From: Octopus vulgaris
Lineage: Eukaryota
Assembly (NCBI GenBank): GCA_951406725.2
Contig: OX597832.1
Location: 67,828,001-67,892,000 of the forward strand
Length of the DNA: 64,000 nt
Direction of reading: 5' to 3'
Shown: positions 17,145 to 38,441 of the stretch, piece after piece
Layout: each line of letters opens with the position of its first letter
Position numbering within the stretch: the stretch's first letter is position 1
The notes under the pieces: generated by a model
What the model saw: only the letters and a program-made list of their open reading frames with translations
Told to the model about the DNA's origin: nothing
The model's database searches: none
Program-made: the position numbers and the translations under genes

Positions 17145-17152
<8 letters not shown>

Positions 17153-17563
17153 TTAGTGAATTGAAGAAATGGAGTTGAACGAAGATTGAACAGAAATCGT
17201 TTTATTGCATTCTACACGTGTTTCGAAAGCCACAATTTACCAAATTCCGATTGAATAAGGAGACCATATTGTGTCTTTCTCTTCAGGAAGAAATAGGAAA
17301 TCCGTTGGAAAAAACAAAAACAGAACAGAGTTTGGCCATGGGCTCTTAGGAGCCTCGTTCGATTTGTTTTGCTCCGCCTCTGTTCTGTTTTTGTTTTTTC
17401 CAACGGATTTCCTATTTCTTCCTGAAGAGAAAGACACAATATGGTCTCCTTATTCAATCGGAATTTGGTAAATTGTGGCTTTCGAAACACGTGTAGAATG
17501 CAATAAAACGATTTCTGTTCAATCTTCGTTCAACTCCATTTCTTCAATTCACTAATAATATTA
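17145..17563. repeat. Palindrome with 186-bp apparently identical arms (17145-17330 / 17378-17563) and a 47-bp loop; element continues to about 17715
   Basis: Direct reverse-complement match. The ORF track shows mirrored peptides on both strands. (TA)n on both sides. Confidence 0.95.
17419..17498 (+). ncRNA. Type I hammerhead ribozyme with long stem II (mirror copy 17210-17289 on minus)
   Basis: ttc CTGAAGA gaaagacacaat...attgtggctttc GAAA cacgtg TA gaa. Palindromic stem III ACACGUGU. Confidence 0.8.
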
Positions 17564-17709
17564 AAATTCAATTATTTGCACCAACGCATGGTTGCAACAC
17601 CATATGGTTGTACCTCCAAACGTGCTGTCTTCTGCTGTGATTTTTGCTACCAAGGTATCGGTTAAACTTTTGATTAATCTGCAACAAGATTATTCATCTT
17701 TCTATTTCA

Positions 17710-17772
<63 letters not shown>

Positions 17773-18427: not shown

Positions 18428-18469
<42 letters not shown>

Positions 18470-18471
<2 letters not shown>

Positions 18472-20007
18472 TAAGAAAGTTTGTTTGGTAAAGCACGTGG
18501 GTGAATATATAAGAAAATAGTAAAGTGTGAAAAAACGACAGAAGGCTTAAATGTTAAAAAATATATATATTTGTGTCAAAATGTCTGGAGAATATTGGAA
18601 AAATTTTTTTTCCCTTTCCTTAAAATGACATAATTTTAAAATTTTTAAAGAAATTACCGGTTTCGCGTGTAGCTTTTCAAATTTCTTGTGACGTTATGTT
18701 TATATTGCATGGAATTATCGTTGTTTTTATTTCCAGGAGATTTCTAAATAAGGGGAGGTAGTGAGTGATTTTTTCCGGTGTAGGGGAGATAATCGCTTAA
18801 AAATTTTTTTTCCCTTTTCCTTGTTAATTTCTCTGTGTCAGTATGTTCGGATGGTTGAGTCTGGGTTTGTACTTTTCAATGAAGAATGTTTCCTTGTTCA
18901 GTCTCATTTGTGTTGATGATCCGAAAGCACATTGGTAAAATGGGAAGATTAAAAATTGTGGCAGTAGTTGCTTTGCGCATTTCTCAATGTGCTCACTAAA
19001 AGGTATCATTCTATATTCTGGGAATGCAATCTGTTGTCGATGCAGTGTGCATCTGCGCCTGAGTGATAGTCCCGTGGAACCCACGTAGTCTTGGTGGCAG
19101 CCCGAGCATTTAATAACATAAATTATGTTTTCAGAGGCACAAGTAAAGTTAGATTTGATCTTAAATTTCTGTCCCTCTTTAAAGAAGAATTCTGATCCTT
19201 CCAATAGGTTAGGACATGTTGCACAGTTCGATCTACCACATTTTTTTACTTTTGCATCCGTAATTTTAGAAGACAATTTTGCCTTTGTGAGAATCTTTTT
19301 AAGTGATTTAGGCTGTTTGTAGCTTTTAATGATTTGGTGTATGTTTAGAATTTCCTTTAATTTTGGGTTTTTATGAAGTATTGGTAAATTCTGGGTGATG
19401 ATGGTGAAGGCTTCTTTGTTTCTGGGGTTGTATGTAGATATGTAAGGTAGTATTTTCGGGGAAGGTGTGTTGTTGTGTTGAACTTTTCTTAAAGTTTCTA
19501 TGTTGATTTCTGTTGCACGTCTGATCCCATCCTCTATGAGTTGAGCTGGGTAATGTCTGTCAATTAGGGTGTTTTTGAGTTCTTGCAGTCTAAAGTTCCT
19601 GGTATTTTGTTCTGACACTATTGTGCATTTCCTTCTTGCAAGGTTGAAGGGGATGTTTGTTTTAGTGTGTCTTGGGTGGCATGAATTAAAAGAAGGTATT
19701 GTTTGGCGTCTGTGGCTTTGTAAAAAATGTCTGTTTCTATTTTAAGGTTAATTTTTTTAATTAGTATATCCAAGAACGGGAGCTCCTTTTGGTTGTATTC
19801 CATTGTGAACTGTATATTTGGGTTTATGCTGTTCAATAGGTTTTTAAATTTTAGGAGTTTATCTATGTTTTCATTCCAGAGAATGAAACAATAGTCTAGG
19901 AATCGTTTCCAATTCTCTTTATGTATTGAGAGAGGGAGTTTCCAAAGATTGATAGAGATTCCTGGTAAATGATTATTTCCATGTATCCCATTGTTAAGTT
20001 CGCAAGT
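18470..20007 (-). mobile_element. 5'-truncated Penelope-like element (Neptune-like): RT C-half, Cys-rich linker, GIY-YIG and 3' UTR; frameshifted
   Basis: LANLTMGYME, WKRFLDYCF, IQFTME...LPFLDILI, TDIFYKATD, CGRSNCATC, FTCASENIIYVIKCSGCHQDYVGST..RRRC..H, E.FFI..Y.P.LN. Confidence 0.9.
18648..18687 (-). ncRNA. Minimal hammerhead with U3:A8 core, in PLE 3' UTR
   Basis: aagaaat TTGAAAA gc tacac gc GAAA ccgg TA atttctt. Confidence 0.75.
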
Positions 20008-20009
20008 CA

Positions 20010-20902
20010 TTCACCATCATCACCCAGAATTTACCAATACTTCATAAAAACCCAAAATTAAAGGAAATTCTAAACATACACCAAATCATTAAAAGCTACA
20101 AACAGCCTAAATCACTTAAAAAGATTCTCACAAAGGCAAAATTGTCTTCTAAAATTACGGATGCAAAAGTAAAAAAATGTGGTAGATCGAACTGTGCAAC
20201 ATGTCCTAACCTATTGGAAGGATCAGAAGTATTGGTAAATTCAGAAATTTAAGATCAAATCTAACTTTACTTGTGCCTCTGAAAACATAATTTATGTTAT
20301 TAAATGCTCGGGCTGCCACCAAGACCACGTGGGTTCCACGGGACTATCACTCAGGCGCAGATGCACACTGCATCGACAACAGATTGCATTCCCAGAATAT
20401 AGAATGATACCTTTTAGTGAGCACATTGAGAAATGCGCAAAGCAACTACTGCCACAATTTTTAATCTTCCCATTTTACCAATGTGCTTTCGGATCATCAA
20501 CACAAATGAGACTGAACAAGGAAACATTCTTCATTGAAAAGTACAAACCCAGACTCAACCATCCGAACATACTGACACAGAGAAATTAACAAGGAAAAGG
20601 GGAAAAAAATTTTTTTTCAGCGATTATCTCCCCTACACCGGAAAAAATCACTCACTACCTCCCCTTATTTAGAAATCTCCTGGAAATAAAAACAACGATA
20701 ATTCCATGCAATATAAACATAACGTCACAAGAAATTTGAAAAGCTACACGCGAAACCGGTAATTTCTTTAAAAATTTTAAAATTATGTCATTTTAAGGAA
20801 AGAGAAAAAAAATTTTTCCAATATTCTCCAGACATTTTGACACAAATATATATATTTTTTAACATTTAAGCCTTCTGTCGTTTTTTCACACTTTACTATT
20901 TT

Positions 20903-20905
<3 letters not shown>
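20010..20905 (+). mobile_element. Inverted second copy of the PLE 3' portion (GIY-YIG plus UTR)
   Basis: Reverse complement of about 18505-19408. ORF 20329-20589 matches the end of ORF 18824-19618. Ends in (TA)n. Confidence 0.95.
20729..20768 (+). ncRNA. Minimal hammerhead with U3:A8 core
   Basis: 7-bp stem I aagaaat/atttctt, 2-bp stem II, palindromic stem III ACCGGU, GUA site. Confidence 0.75.
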
Positions 20906-20980
<75 letters not shown>

Positions 20981-27596: not shown

Positions 27597-27665
<69 letters not shown>

Positions 27666-27670
<5 letters not shown>

Positions 27671-28481
27671 AAATATATGGTACGACGAAGTACCGATATT
27701 TACTGGAAAATAGCGAACGTAATAAATACGACGCTAATGTATAGCTTCACCGCGTATGTACTAGCAAAAATGCGTGTGTGCAACAAAATTGAAACAAATT
27801 GTCTTACCTCCAGGGTGAACATCTGAAAGATGAAATACCTAGAAAGGGATAATGTGGTACCGGTTTCAGATTTTTCAAGATATGTCTGCACACATATACT
27901 TGATTTATCTTCATCAGCCAACATATACCTCGACAACATTTCAAATGCTGCCGCATCAATGCCAATGCACTCGACTGAAACGCCAAAACGCTGACAGAAC
28001 GAGAACAGTGAAGAAGTTTTAAAAAAATAGTAATGCAATACGAGAGTATTGCTTTCCAGTAAAGAATAGCCCGTGAGGGAAAATTATACATTTTGGCGTT
28101 TCAGTCGAGTGTATTGGCATAGATGCGGCAACATTTGACATGTTGTCGAGGTATATGTTGGCTGATGAAGATAAATCAAGTATATGTGTGCAGACATATA
28201 TTGAAAAATCTGAAACCGGTACCACCATTATCCCTTTCTAGGTATTTCATCTTTTAGATGTTCTCCCTGGAGGTAAGACAATTTTTTTCAATTTTGTTGC
28301 ACACACGCATTTTTGGTAGTACATACGCGGTGAAGCTATACATTAGCGTCGTATTTATTACGTTCGGTATTTTCCAGTAAATATCGGTACTTCGTTGTAC
28401 CATATATTTACTTCTATGTATAATTTTCCCTCACGGGCTATTCTTTACTGGAAAGCAATACTCTCGTATTGCATTACTATT
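27666..28481. mobile_element. Tails-out inverted pair of an approximately 425-nt HHR element, circularly permuted
   Basis: 27666-27988 is the reverse complement of 28091-28414, and 28026-28090 is the reverse complement of 28417-28481. Confidence 0.9.
28159..28224 (+). ncRNA. Type I hammerhead ribozyme (mirror copy 27855-27920 on minus)
   Basis: tgg CTGATGA agat..(hairpin)..atct GAAA ccgg TA cca. Confidence 0.8.
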
Positions 28482-28510
28482 TATATATATATATATTTAT
28501 ATATATATAT

Positions 28511-28682
28511 AGGCCCAGGAGTAGCTGTGTTGCAAGTAGCTTGTCTACCAACCACATGGATCCGGGTTCAGTCCCACTGCTTGGCACCCTGGGCAAGTGT
28601 GTTCTACTATAGCCTCGGGCCGACCAAAGCCTTATGAGTGGATTTGGTAGACGGAAACTGAAAGAAGCCCGTCGTATATATG

Positions 28683-28746
<64 letters not shown>

Positions 28747-28925
28747 TGTGTGTGTTTGTGTGTCTGTGTTTGTCCCCTAGCATTGTTTGACAACCGATGC
28801 TGGTGTGTTTATGTCCCCGTTACTTAGCAGTTCGGCAAAAGAGACCGGGGTCGAGTTGCTTGATTAAAGGCGGTGCTCCAGCATACCCGCAGTCAAATGA
28901 CTGAAACAAGTAAAAGAGTAAAAGA
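28511..28925 (+). mobile_element. tRNA-derived SINE (Octopus OR-like) with internal (TA)/(TG) tract
   Basis: tRNA-like head with ggttcagtcccactgc, then ggcaccctgggcaagtg and gtggatttggtagacggaaactgaaagaagccc; tail gactgaaacaagtaaaagag. Confidence 0.85.
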
Positions 28926-29671
28926 GTATATATATATATATCTGACTATATTCGTGCACAGATATCTCTATCTGAATTCAGATCTGCTTTTCATCCAGCC
29001 TTGTTTGATTAAAATATCGTACCACTCAATTACTGAAGTCGATATAATCGAAGATGACTTTGTGATCTTGTACTTACGCACACACACACACATACACACA
29101 CACACACACAGAGGCAGACAGACACACACAAAAAAAACTGATATTCAGTCGTTCAGGACGCGAGTGATCCGATCAAACGAACACGTGCTCATGAATTTAA
29201 TTGGTTGAGCATGTCCCAAAAACGCGTATCCTCAATGTTGTTCTGAAAAAAGATCCGGTGTGACTCTTTGAAATACTCATGCAACTCATGTTTTTCAACT
29301 GAATGAAATAGTGCTACGTGATATAAAGTATATTCTTGAATATATACACATATATACACATATAGGCATATATATATAGATATACATATATATATATATA
29401 TATACATATATACACATATATACACATATTTATATATACACAAATATATATACATGTACACATACATTTATATTATATATACATATACACATACATATTC
29501 ATTATATATACATATATACATGCATATATACATTATGTATACATATACGCCTAAATATGTATTACGTATACATATACACAAATACATATGTATTCATATA
29601 TACAAATATATATGTATACATACATACCAATATATGTGTATACATATATATATATATATATATATTATGTA

Positions 29672-37625: not shown

Positions 37626-38438
37626 ATCGTGACGTATTTTTGCCATTTCAATATGGCTAACCCCTAAGGGTCGATGCTACTGTAGTTTTTAGCCCCAGGA
37701 GGACACACTCCTCCAGCTGGCCATAGACACACTATCTGTGTCCTGTCAGTATTTGCAAAGGGAAGTCATCCTTCCCGTCTTCAACTTATGATACACACGG
37801 ACTCGAGTTTCGAGGTATTGACCTCTCGTCAGCGTGTGACAATCATAGTTGTCGCCGAGAATTAGATTTCCTTCACGAATACTTTTACTTTTTCCAGCGT
37901 CCACTGTCGCTGATATTGAAAAAGTGAAATCAAACAATGATAAATATCAAAGTAAGTTATATACAGTAGCGGTAACACATCGTGACGTATTTTTGCCATT
38001 TCAATATGGCAAAAATACGTCACGATGTGTTACCGCTACTGTATATAACTCACTTTGATATTTATCATTGTTTGATTTCACTTTTTCAATATCAGCGACG
38101 GTGGACGCTGGAAAAAGTATAAGTATTTGTGAAGGAAATCTAATTCTCGGCGACAACTATGATTGTCACACGCTGACGAGAGGTCAATACCTCGAAACTC
38201 GAGTCCGTGTGTATCATAAGTTGAAGACGGGAAGGATGACTTCCACTTGCAAATACTGACAGGACACAGATAGTGTGTCTATGGCTAGCTGGAGGAGTGT
38301 GTCCTCCTGGGGCTAAAAACTACAGTAGCATCCACCCTTAGGGGAAATGCAAAAATAGCACATGTGTGAGAAAATGGCTATAAAAAATACGTCACGATGT
38401 GTTACCGCTACTGTATATAACTCACTTTGATATTTATC

Positions 38439-38441
<3 letters not shown>
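37626..38441. mobile_element. Fold-back palindrome of an approximately 353-nt HHR element, both halves terminally redundant, in (TA)n
   Basis: Arms 37661-37999 / 38006-38344 with a 6-nt loop. 37626-37657 repeats at 37979-38010, and 38011-38069 repeats at 38383-38441. Confidence 0.95.
38167..38211 (+). ncRNA. Canonical type I hammerhead ribozyme (mirror copy 37794-37838 on minus)
   Basis: cacacg CTGACGA gagg tcaata cctc GAAA ctcgag TC cgtgtg. All stems perfect; GUC site, cleavage predicted after 38205. Confidence 0.92.

What the first reader, a model, noticed from the sequence alone, without database searches (positions are those of the whole stretch)
27666..28481. Inverted pair whose halves are circular permutations of one ~425-nt unit
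Seen: the minus half reads B(28090-28026)-C-A(27988-27666). The plus half reads A(28091-28414)-ta-B(28417-28481). B precedes A in one copy and follows it in the other, with a canonical HHR inside A. Inference: the template was a circle or a head-to-tail multimer, as described for retrozymes. The arms differ at several sites, so a simple assembly fold-back is unlikely.
Basis: partly seen in the sequence, partly recalled or inferred. Interest (0 to 1): 0.75.

Follow-up and report, generated by a model that had tools for sequence, protein, structure and literature searches.

The report
Two-armed hammerhead retroelement in TA repeat
This is one of many hundreds of copies of a 428-base non-coding repeat that carries a hammerhead (self-cutting RNA) motif and sits back to back in TA repeats; it was likely pasted by a Penelope-type retrotransposon enzyme copying one RNA source from both cut DNA ends, and whether that RNA was a circle is untested.

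Summary
The left arm reads B-C-A and the right arm A-B (A 96.3%, B 100% identical). The unit is a 428-nt ORF-less dispersed family with 707 exact matches to one motif, so the A-B join is not local. Arm 3' ends fall at two fixed sites about 60 nt apart, abutting (TA)n. All 23 classifiable head-to-head pairs not selected for either end join one 'near' and one 'far' end. Paired arms share subfamily alleles (151/174 against 59% when shuffled). This is the tail-plus-inverted-copy footprint published for Penelope-like elements, and it explains the permutation. The type I hammerhead shows compensatory changes and a palindromic helix III. A circle is not shown: the one circular-looking contig traces to a linear genomic copy. 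No sequence-related autonomous partner was found. Verdict: a new member of the animal non-LTR retrozymes / non-autonomous Penelope-like elements. The scan reported the same pattern before in another genome (e1-8671497).

The parts
27600..27667 (.). Left target flank: (TA)20 followed by (AG)14 on the + strand. The (CT)n run is probably slippage at the arm's ...TTCT 3' end (inferred; older-subfamily copies often end the same way).
27665..28091 (-). Left arm, B-C-A, 1.00 unit (unit positions 326 to 428, then 1 to 325); 3' end at the 'near' site
27850..27927 (-). Type I hammerhead of the left arm: core CUGAUGA at 27917-27911, long helix II, palindromic helix III ACCGGT, predicted cleavage after GUA at 27858
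27989..28024 (-). Segment C (36 nt), which links B to A inside the unit; pyrimidine-rich, ends CAGCG
28025..28091 (-). B at the 5' start of the left arm (100% identical to 28416-28482)
28091..28091 (.). Head-to-head 5'-to-5' junction with one shared base (family median overlap 2 nt)
28091..28482 (+). Right arm, A-B, 0.92 unit (unit positions 1 to 392); 3' end at the 'far' site
28152..28230 (+). Type I hammerhead of the right arm: core at 28162-28168, predicted cleavage after 28221; carries a private helix II substitution and a 1-nt insertion in helix I
28269..28277 (+). GAG|GTAAGAC, a splice-donor-like motif kept in the 66%-identical older subfamily (also at 27811-27803 on the - strand); function untested
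28413..28422 (+). 'Near' 3' start site (unit positions about 323-332), just after the hairpin GGTAC..GTACC; 74 of 85 near ends map to 332
28423..28482 (+). About 60-nt 'tail' between the near and far start sites, with the perfect hairpin GCAATAC-TCTC-GTATTGC at 28455-28472
28478..28511 (.). Right target flank, (TA)17

Best explanation
The locus is a single head-to-head insertion of a 428-nt, non-coding, hammerhead-bearing repeat into a (TA)n tract, likely made by a Penelope-like element's reverse transcriptase/GIY-YIG enzyme acting in trans. Steps: (1) the enzyme nicks both strands of (TA)n (inferred from the flanks and from PMC11167929). (2) Each free 3' end primes copying at one of two fixed internal sites about 60 nt apart, one site per end (the end positions and the one-of-each rule are shown; priming is inferred). 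(3) Both cDNAs come from the same source variant (shown statistically). (4) They run on across the unit boundary and the hammerhead site, so the template was a circle or a head-to-tail multimer (continuity is shown; I put a circle at about 0.5). (5) They stop at variable points and are joined 5' to 5' by a few bases of microhomology (overlap shown; repair step inferred). The left arm made one lap from the near site (B-C-A) and the right arm made 392 nt from the far site (A-B), which gives the apparent circular permutation.
For: Dispersed family: 1,528 candidate places, 40 scored; 707 exact matches to a 19-mer and 0 in the control. 3' ends of 203 distinct arms in 167 loci: 104 near, 77 far, 22 elsewhere. 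A microsatellite lies within 22 nt downstream of 79/85 near and 58/62 far arms, against 5/16 others. Of 37 pairs from loci not selected for the far end, 23 were classifiable and all 23 are near+far (binomial p 2e-7 against 0.5); 14 had a broken arm. Of 27 pairs selected with the A-B query, 23 are near+far, 3 are far+far (one compound, duplicated locus) and 1 is broken. No tail-to-tail pairs. Arms of a pair agree at 151/174 diagnostic sites against 59+/-4% (maximum 69%) in 300 shuffles. Junction overlap median 2 nt. Arms reach 1.78-2.66 units; only 4 of 181 5' ends fall in the 121-140 bin that holds the cleavage site. Hammerhead: 94% of cells paired and 8 of 19 pairs changed on both sides across subfamilies about 66% identical, against 19-37% paired for slid controls; helix III is a perfect palindrome in 108 of 133 motifs, in several different sequences. 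At least two abundant RT+GIY-YIG families that end at (TA)n exist in this genome. The same geometry is published for PLEs: partial tandems, inverted 5'-truncated copy, one-sided tail, (TA)n bias (PMC8557442), and two internal RT start sites bounding the tail (PMC11167929).
Against: No autonomous element sharing sequence with the unit was found among the 56 PLE-bearing loci compared; only 150 of 6,136 and 150 of 13,996 candidates were scored. The tail is about 60 nt, longer than the published 30-40 nt. In vitro, the Anolis enzyme showed no strand difference in start site and did not need hammerhead cleavage. At this locus the near end is atypical (325 plus a (CT)n run instead of 332). Two chimeric pairs that join a unit arm to a PLE arm (L124, L120) could be chance co-insertions into shared (TA)n sites. 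Ribozyme activity and transcription are untested.
Confidence: 0.82

Rival explanations
1. Same enzyme and geometry, but the template is always a linear read-through transcript of a partial-tandem genomic copy (a plain miniature PLE with an internal promoter). No circular RNA is involved and the hammerhead is an inherited pLTR feature. This is an alternative at step 4 of the best explanation, not to the whole of it.
For: 45 of 163 arms exceed one unit and could serve as templates. 5' ends are somewhat enriched at 161-180 (14 of 181, including repeats from one duplicated locus), next to a conserved donor-like motif, resembling the Penelope start-site and intron layout (PMC8557442). Hammerhead cleavage is dispensable for the Anolis PLE in vitro. 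The only contig cycle traces to linear copy L063. No two-hammerhead tandem was found in the window's own subfamily (0 of 85).
Against: Daughters cannot be longer than their linear parent, yet arms reach 2.66 units, and exact-motif searches found no array of 3 or more units (6 and 1 matches). The unit has kept its length and ribozyme structure across about 35% divergence. The 0/85 against 6/170 contrast is not significant (Fisher p 0.18).
Confidence: 0.45
2. The arms are just the 3' ends (pLTRs) of 5'-truncated copies of an autonomous PLE not yet found, not an independent non-autonomous family.
For: This is the usual explanation of head-to-head hammerhead pairs, and the partner search covered only a small part of the candidates.
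Against: B is followed by C and then A with no ORF in every long arm mapped, and the unit repeats with a 428-433 nt period up to 2.66 times. The older subfamily has the same closed unit. tblastn with a PLE protein found only 4 hits in the unit-bearing loci, none continuous in the sense direction with an arm.
Confidence: 0.07
3. A local DNA rearrangement or assembly fold-back of one monomer.
For: The two B copies are 100% identical over 67 nt.
Against: The arms differ by 11 substitutions and 1 indel. The A-B join and the near+far pairing recur on many chromosomes with different junction points. B is well conserved across the family (3.1% departure from the majority).
Confidence: 0.01
4. L1-style twin priming on one linear RNA, in which the two arms copy non-overlapping parts of the template.
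For: Head-to-head geometry, short junction overlaps and a shared source variant.
Against: The 5' ends of far-ended arms do not stop at the near priming site (unit 333); they are scattered. Both outer ends are fixed internal sites, not a poly(A) end.
Confidence: 0.05

Closest known systems
Animal non-LTR retrozymes (Cervera and De la Pena 2020, PMC7229834; Li et al. 2026 preprint 10.64898/2026.07.22.740005)
   Same: Non-coding 150-450 nt unit, low GC, type I hammerhead, self-paired fold (z about -5), co-occurrence with PLEs, a few copies with two hammerheads in tandem.
   Different: Published families are described as tandem repeats (dimers up to 62-mers or more) with circRNA shown by northern blot. 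Here copies are mostly single-hammerhead, dispersed, 5'-truncated and two-armed, with fixed PLE-type ends, and no RNA is shown. 'Inverted' does not occur in the main text of PMC7229834.
EN+ Penelope-like element insertions with pLTR, inverted 5'-truncated copy and tail (PMC8557442; PAc mechanism PMC11167929)
   Same: Partial tandem plus inverted copy, tail at one end, two fixed 3' ends, (TA)n target, hammerhead upstream of the start sites.
   Different: No ORF; the repeating unit is 428 nt rather than 3-5 kb; the tail is about 60 nt; no sequence link to an autonomous family was found.
Non-autonomous Chlamys PLEs such as MRC1 (PMC8557442, passage)
   Same: ORF-less PLE satellites that give pLTRs and multi-copy head-to-tail insertions.
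   Different: Those generally share 3' sequence with autonomous families, and most Chlamys elements lack a hammerhead; they occur in green algae.
Dimer-dependent type I hammerheads of metazoan PLEs and tandem repeats (PMC4209133, passages)
   Same: Short helix III capped by a small palindromic loop, predicted to need a second copy.
   Different: Helix II is much longer and closes with A-U (A.C in many older copies) instead of G10.1-C11.1. At this locus the two motifs lie on opposite strands, so they cannot pair in one transcript.

Membership tests
Animal non-LTR retrozyme | Short non-coding unit (about 150-450 nt), low GC, no ORF | tested here: met
   428-nt closed unit B-C-A in all long arms; no PLE protein match within arms
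Animal non-LTR retrozyme | Type I hammerhead in each unit | tested here: met
   Core invariant; compensatory pairs in helices I and II; Rfam itself gave no hit
Animal non-LTR retrozyme | [quoted passage not shown] | tested here: inconclusive
   Not met at this locus or in its subfamily (0 of 85); met by 6 loci of sister subfamilies
Animal non-LTR retrozyme | Self-cleavage of the RNA | not testable with these tools
   Needs in vitro transcription
Animal non-LTR retrozyme | Expressed as a circular RNA | tested here: inconclusive
   Only assembled contigs of runs guessed to be RNA were available; the one cycle maps to linear copy L063
EN+ PLE-type insertion | Partial tandem plus inverted 5'-truncated copy joined at the 5' end | tested here: met
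   64 head-to-head pairs; no tail-to-tail pairs
EN+ PLE-type insertion | Two fixed 3' ends bounding a tail, present at one end | tested here: met
   Ends at about 332 and 392; 23/23 unselected pairs have one of each; tail about 60 nt rather than 30-40
EN+ PLE-type insertion | (TA)n target bias | tested here: met
   137 of 147 near or far ends abut a microsatellite (sequences)
Autonomous PLE | RT + GIY-YIG ORF within the element | tested here: not met
   No ORF in the unit
Non-autonomous derivative of a specific PLE | Sequence shared with an autonomous family's pLTR | tested here: inconclusive
   No match in 56 PLE-bearing loci; only 150 of 6,136 GIY-YIG candidates were scored

The most novel reading that the evidence does not exclude
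A 428-nt hammerhead circular RNA has persisted in this lineage across about 35% sequence divergence as a parasite of a Penelope-type enzyme to which it has no detectable sequence kinship. A dimeric enzyme copies the circle by rolling-circle reverse transcription from both nicked target strands, each subunit obliged to use a different one of two start sites. The genomic copies would then be a fossil record linking retrozyme circles to the PLE transposition cycle and fixing its stoichiometry.
Probability: 0.35. Interest if true: 0.7.

Novelty: new member of a known kind. Interest (0 to 1): 0.42.

Why it matters
How animal retrozymes are pasted into genomes, and how Penelope-like elements make their tandem and inverted structures, are both called open in the papers read (10.64898/2026.07.22.740005; PMC8557442). 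This family carries the full Penelope insertion footprint with no ORF, which supports trans-mobilisation by a Penelope-type enzyme from insertion anatomy rather than from co-occurrence. It also gives two countable rules: one near plus one far end per insertion, and both arms from one source variant. The published Anolis in vitro system can test these directly. The geometry itself is common: three other head-to-head PLE-type insertions lie in this same 64-kb window.

Tried and rejected
Rfam scans found no hammerhead. Sequencing-run search: no RNA holder listed; all runs are contigs and 'RNA' is a guess. Reads were laid for 8 of the 24 listed runs; no joint from the donor-like motif to an acceptor appeared among the joints shown (one search listed 8 joints; one search left 48 unshown), and the summed depths are not a measure of expression. 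In run X3, two contigs (402 + 86 nt, with 30-nt overlaps at both ends) close into exactly 428 nt; I rejected this as circle evidence because the 402-nt contig starts at unit position 211 and carries the variants of linear copy L063 (5' end at 211, 1.29 units). Spliced retrocopies joining the donor-like motif to either candidate acceptor: 0 matches. A link between extended helix III and multimers: 6/170 against 0/85, p 0.18, not significant. A 19/20 match to locus L101 was chance. The mirrored structure at L130 is a nested LINE plus an inverted segmental duplication, not a PLE product. Chimeric pairs L124 and L120 were kept as weak hints only, since the L124 partner family has about 14,000 candidate copies. 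The first structure string for pair counting was out of register and was redone. Literature searches turned up no description of this family; the preprint's supplements are closed, and repeat libraries (Repbase, Dfam, supplements of PMC13282606) were not seen and may already list it.

Full report
OBSERVATION. A (28091-28415, +) matches 27988-27665 (-) at 96.3% over 325 nt. B (28416-28482) matches 28091-28025 (-) at 100% over 67 nt. C (36 nt) occurs only in the left arm. The unit is 428 nt. Both outer ends are 3' ends that abut microsatellites, and the 5' ends meet at base 28091. The arms differ by 11 substitutions and one indel while sharing four subfamily alleles, which excludes an assembly fold-back. 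The genome is a 2.8-Gb animal assembly, probably a cephalopod (recalled from its repeat content, not tested).

FAMILY. The A-B stretch has 1,528 candidate places, of which 40 were scored. A 19-mer near the end of A has 707 exact matches and 0 in the control. An older subfamily, 65-71% identical, has 844 candidates and the same period. In every long arm mapped, B is followed by C and then A with no ORF.

FIXED ENDS. Of 203 distinct arms in 167 loci, 104 end at unit position about 332 ('near'), 77 at about 392 ('far') and 22 elsewhere, mostly broken by later events. 137 of 147 near or far ends abut a microsatellite, mostly (TA)n. Among 37 head-to-head pairs from loci not selected for the far end, 23 could be classified and all 23 join one near and one far end (p 2e-7); 14 had a broken arm. 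Among 27 pairs selected with the A-B query, 23 are near+far, 3 are far+far from one compound duplicated locus, and 1 is broken. There are no near+near pairs and no tail-to-tail pairs. Several apparent solo arms have a tiny inverted partner of 7-24 nt that fits the same rule. Arms of one pair agree at 151 of 174 diagnostic sites against 59+/-4% for shuffled pairs, so both derive from one source variant. Junction overlaps have a median of 2 nt (BLAST end extension adds up to about 1 nt by chance). These samples were chosen by similarity or exact motifs, so they lean towards younger and longer copies.

WHY IT LOOKS PERMUTED. The left arm began at the near site and ran one lap (326 to 428, then 1 to 325). 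The right arm began at the far site and ran 392 nt. B is essentially the roughly 60-nt tail between the two start sites. Arm lengths in the family vary from about 40 to 1,139 nt, so the exact one-unit length here is chance.

TEMPLATE. 45 of 163 arms exceed one unit. Six loci hold two hammerheads in direct tandem, with arms of 1.6-2.66 units. A search for two consecutive C segments gave 1 match, and no array of three or more units appeared. 5' ends do not pile up at the predicted cleavage site (4 of 181 in the 121-140 bin), so templates were not cleaved linear monomers copied to their end. Seamless copying across the unit boundary is thus shown. Whether it came from a circle, from template jumping, or from linear partial-tandem transcripts is open. 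A circle would explain how multi-unit arms regenerate without a master array. A linear source is supported by the many arms longer than one unit and by a mild excess of 5' ends at 161-180 beside a conserved donor-like motif. I put the circle at about 0.5.

RIBOZYME. Both arms carry CUGAUGA, a long helix II, GAAAC-CG-GUA and helix I; Rfam misses it. Across 20 distinct young and old copies, 94% of cells pair and 8 of 19 pairs change on both sides, against 19-37% pairing for slid controls (these are related sequences, so not independent events). Helix III with its loop is a perfect palindrome in 108 of 133 motifs, in several different sequences such as ACCGGT, ACCTAGGT, ACCTGCAGGT and ACCTGCGCAGGT. 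This matches the dimer-dependent type I form described in PMC4209133 (passages). The unit folds better than shuffles (z -5.4 as a circle; the antisense strand -4.6; 40 shuffles). Two-hammerhead tandems were seen only in subfamilies with a longer helix III (6 of about 170 against 0 of 85), which is not significant. At this locus the two motifs lie on opposite strands, so it cannot itself release a circle by double cleavage (inference).

PARTNER. The genome holds abundant RT+GIY-YIG elements that end at (TA)n: one family with 781-codon frames and one with about 14,000 candidate copies. Neither shares sequence with the unit (56 loci compared). Two loci join a unit arm 5' to 5' to a PLE 3' end (L124, L120); given how abundant those families are, these may be chance. 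The mobilising enzyme is inferred, not identified.

RNA. The read data are uninformative; see Tried and rejected. One result needs stating because it looked positive: a closed 428-nt contig cycle in run X3 is explained by the linear 1.29-unit copy L063, whose 5' end and variants it carries. This also shows that junction reads cannot prove a circle for this family.

COMPARISON. PMC8557442 (passages) describes partial tandems, an inverted 5'-truncated copy, a 30-40 bp tail often at one end only, (TA)n bias and non-autonomous members. PMC11167929 (parts 1-2 of 4) shows both-strand nicking and two internal RT start sites bounding the tail, with hammerhead cleavage dispensable in vitro. PMC7229834 (part 2 of 6 and passages) defines animal non-LTR retrozymes and shows their circRNAs. 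The 2026 preprint (parts 1-3 of 5; supplements closed) derives them from PLEs by co-occurrence and pLTR phylogeny. PMC13282606 (passages) has no mention of hammerheads, ribozymes or retrozymes in its main text. Six literature searches found no account of this family, but repeat libraries were not seen. Three other head-to-head PLE-type insertions lie in this window, one with the same permuted layout. Earlier scan notes report the same pattern in other genomes; I had stated my reading before seeing them and did not test their claims.

VERDICT. The feature is real and well explained: a new member of the non-LTR retrozyme / non-autonomous Penelope-like class. Its added value is the strict one-near-one-far rule, the shared source of both arms, and the multi-unit arms, which make a circle-copying model testable. 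Interest 0.42.

Noticed in passing
window 37626-38441: A second, unrelated ORF-less hammerhead element with the same architecture: head-to-head arms (97% identical), a 59-nt segment repeated at a 372-nt period in the right arm, palindromic helix III ACTCGAGT, both ends in (TA)n.
   Followed up: partly
window 17145-17714: A third head-to-head hammerhead pair between (TA)n tracts (helix III ACACGTGT); the right arm runs about 150 nt beyond the left arm's end.
   Followed up: partly
window 18434-20980: Head-to-head pair of 5'-truncated, broken RT+GIY-YIG PLE fragments, 95.8% identical over 978 nt.
   Followed up: partly
L124:2020-3809 and L120:1027-1510: Chimeric head-to-head insertions: a unit arm joined 5' to 5' to the 3' end of an unrelated GIY-YIG PLE family, both outer ends in (TA)n. 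In L120 the foreign arm runs about 35 nt past the end seen in L098.
   Followed up: partly
L223, L225, L226 (G000 C8:57.97 Mb and others): A very abundant young PLE family (13,996 candidates, about 97% protein identity, tandem unit about 4.5 kb, minimal hammerhead about 110 nt before a single 3' end).
   Followed up: partly
L091:930-6172: A 781-codon RT+GIY-YIG PLE with an upstream ORF and a 456-nt pLTR that starts at a TATA-like motif; its 3' UTR has repeated ATTGG and TGACGTC motifs, and my scan found no hammerhead.
   Followed up: no
L194-L222: An older subfamily of the unit (65-71% identical, 844 candidates) with the same period; many copies end in (CT)n before (TA)n.
   Followed up: partly
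L130:2373-7646 and L127:536-717: An RT-encoding LINE with a 1,146-codon open frame nested in the unit at about position 253, inside a 99.7% inverted segmental duplication; a short 3' piece of the same LINE family interrupts an old copy in L127.
   Followed up: partly
L102:2950-3400 and L101:5581-6334: Further small families: a head-to-head hammerhead pair with unequal 3' ends, and a 345-nt partial tandem ending at (TA)n with no hammerhead seen.
   Followed up: no
unit positions 161-183 (window about 28251-28273): 5' ends recur near 177-180, just before the conserved donor-like motif; this may be a transcription start or an RT pause site.
   Followed up: partly
window 27665-28482: A transcript through the whole locus is predicted to fold into an 818-nt hairpin (-583 kcal/mol, 85% paired), a possible double-stranded RNA substrate for editing or silencing.
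   Followed up: no
window 28513-28930: A very high-copy SINE-like repeat directly right of the element (depths; the SINE label is recalled, not tested).
   Followed up: no
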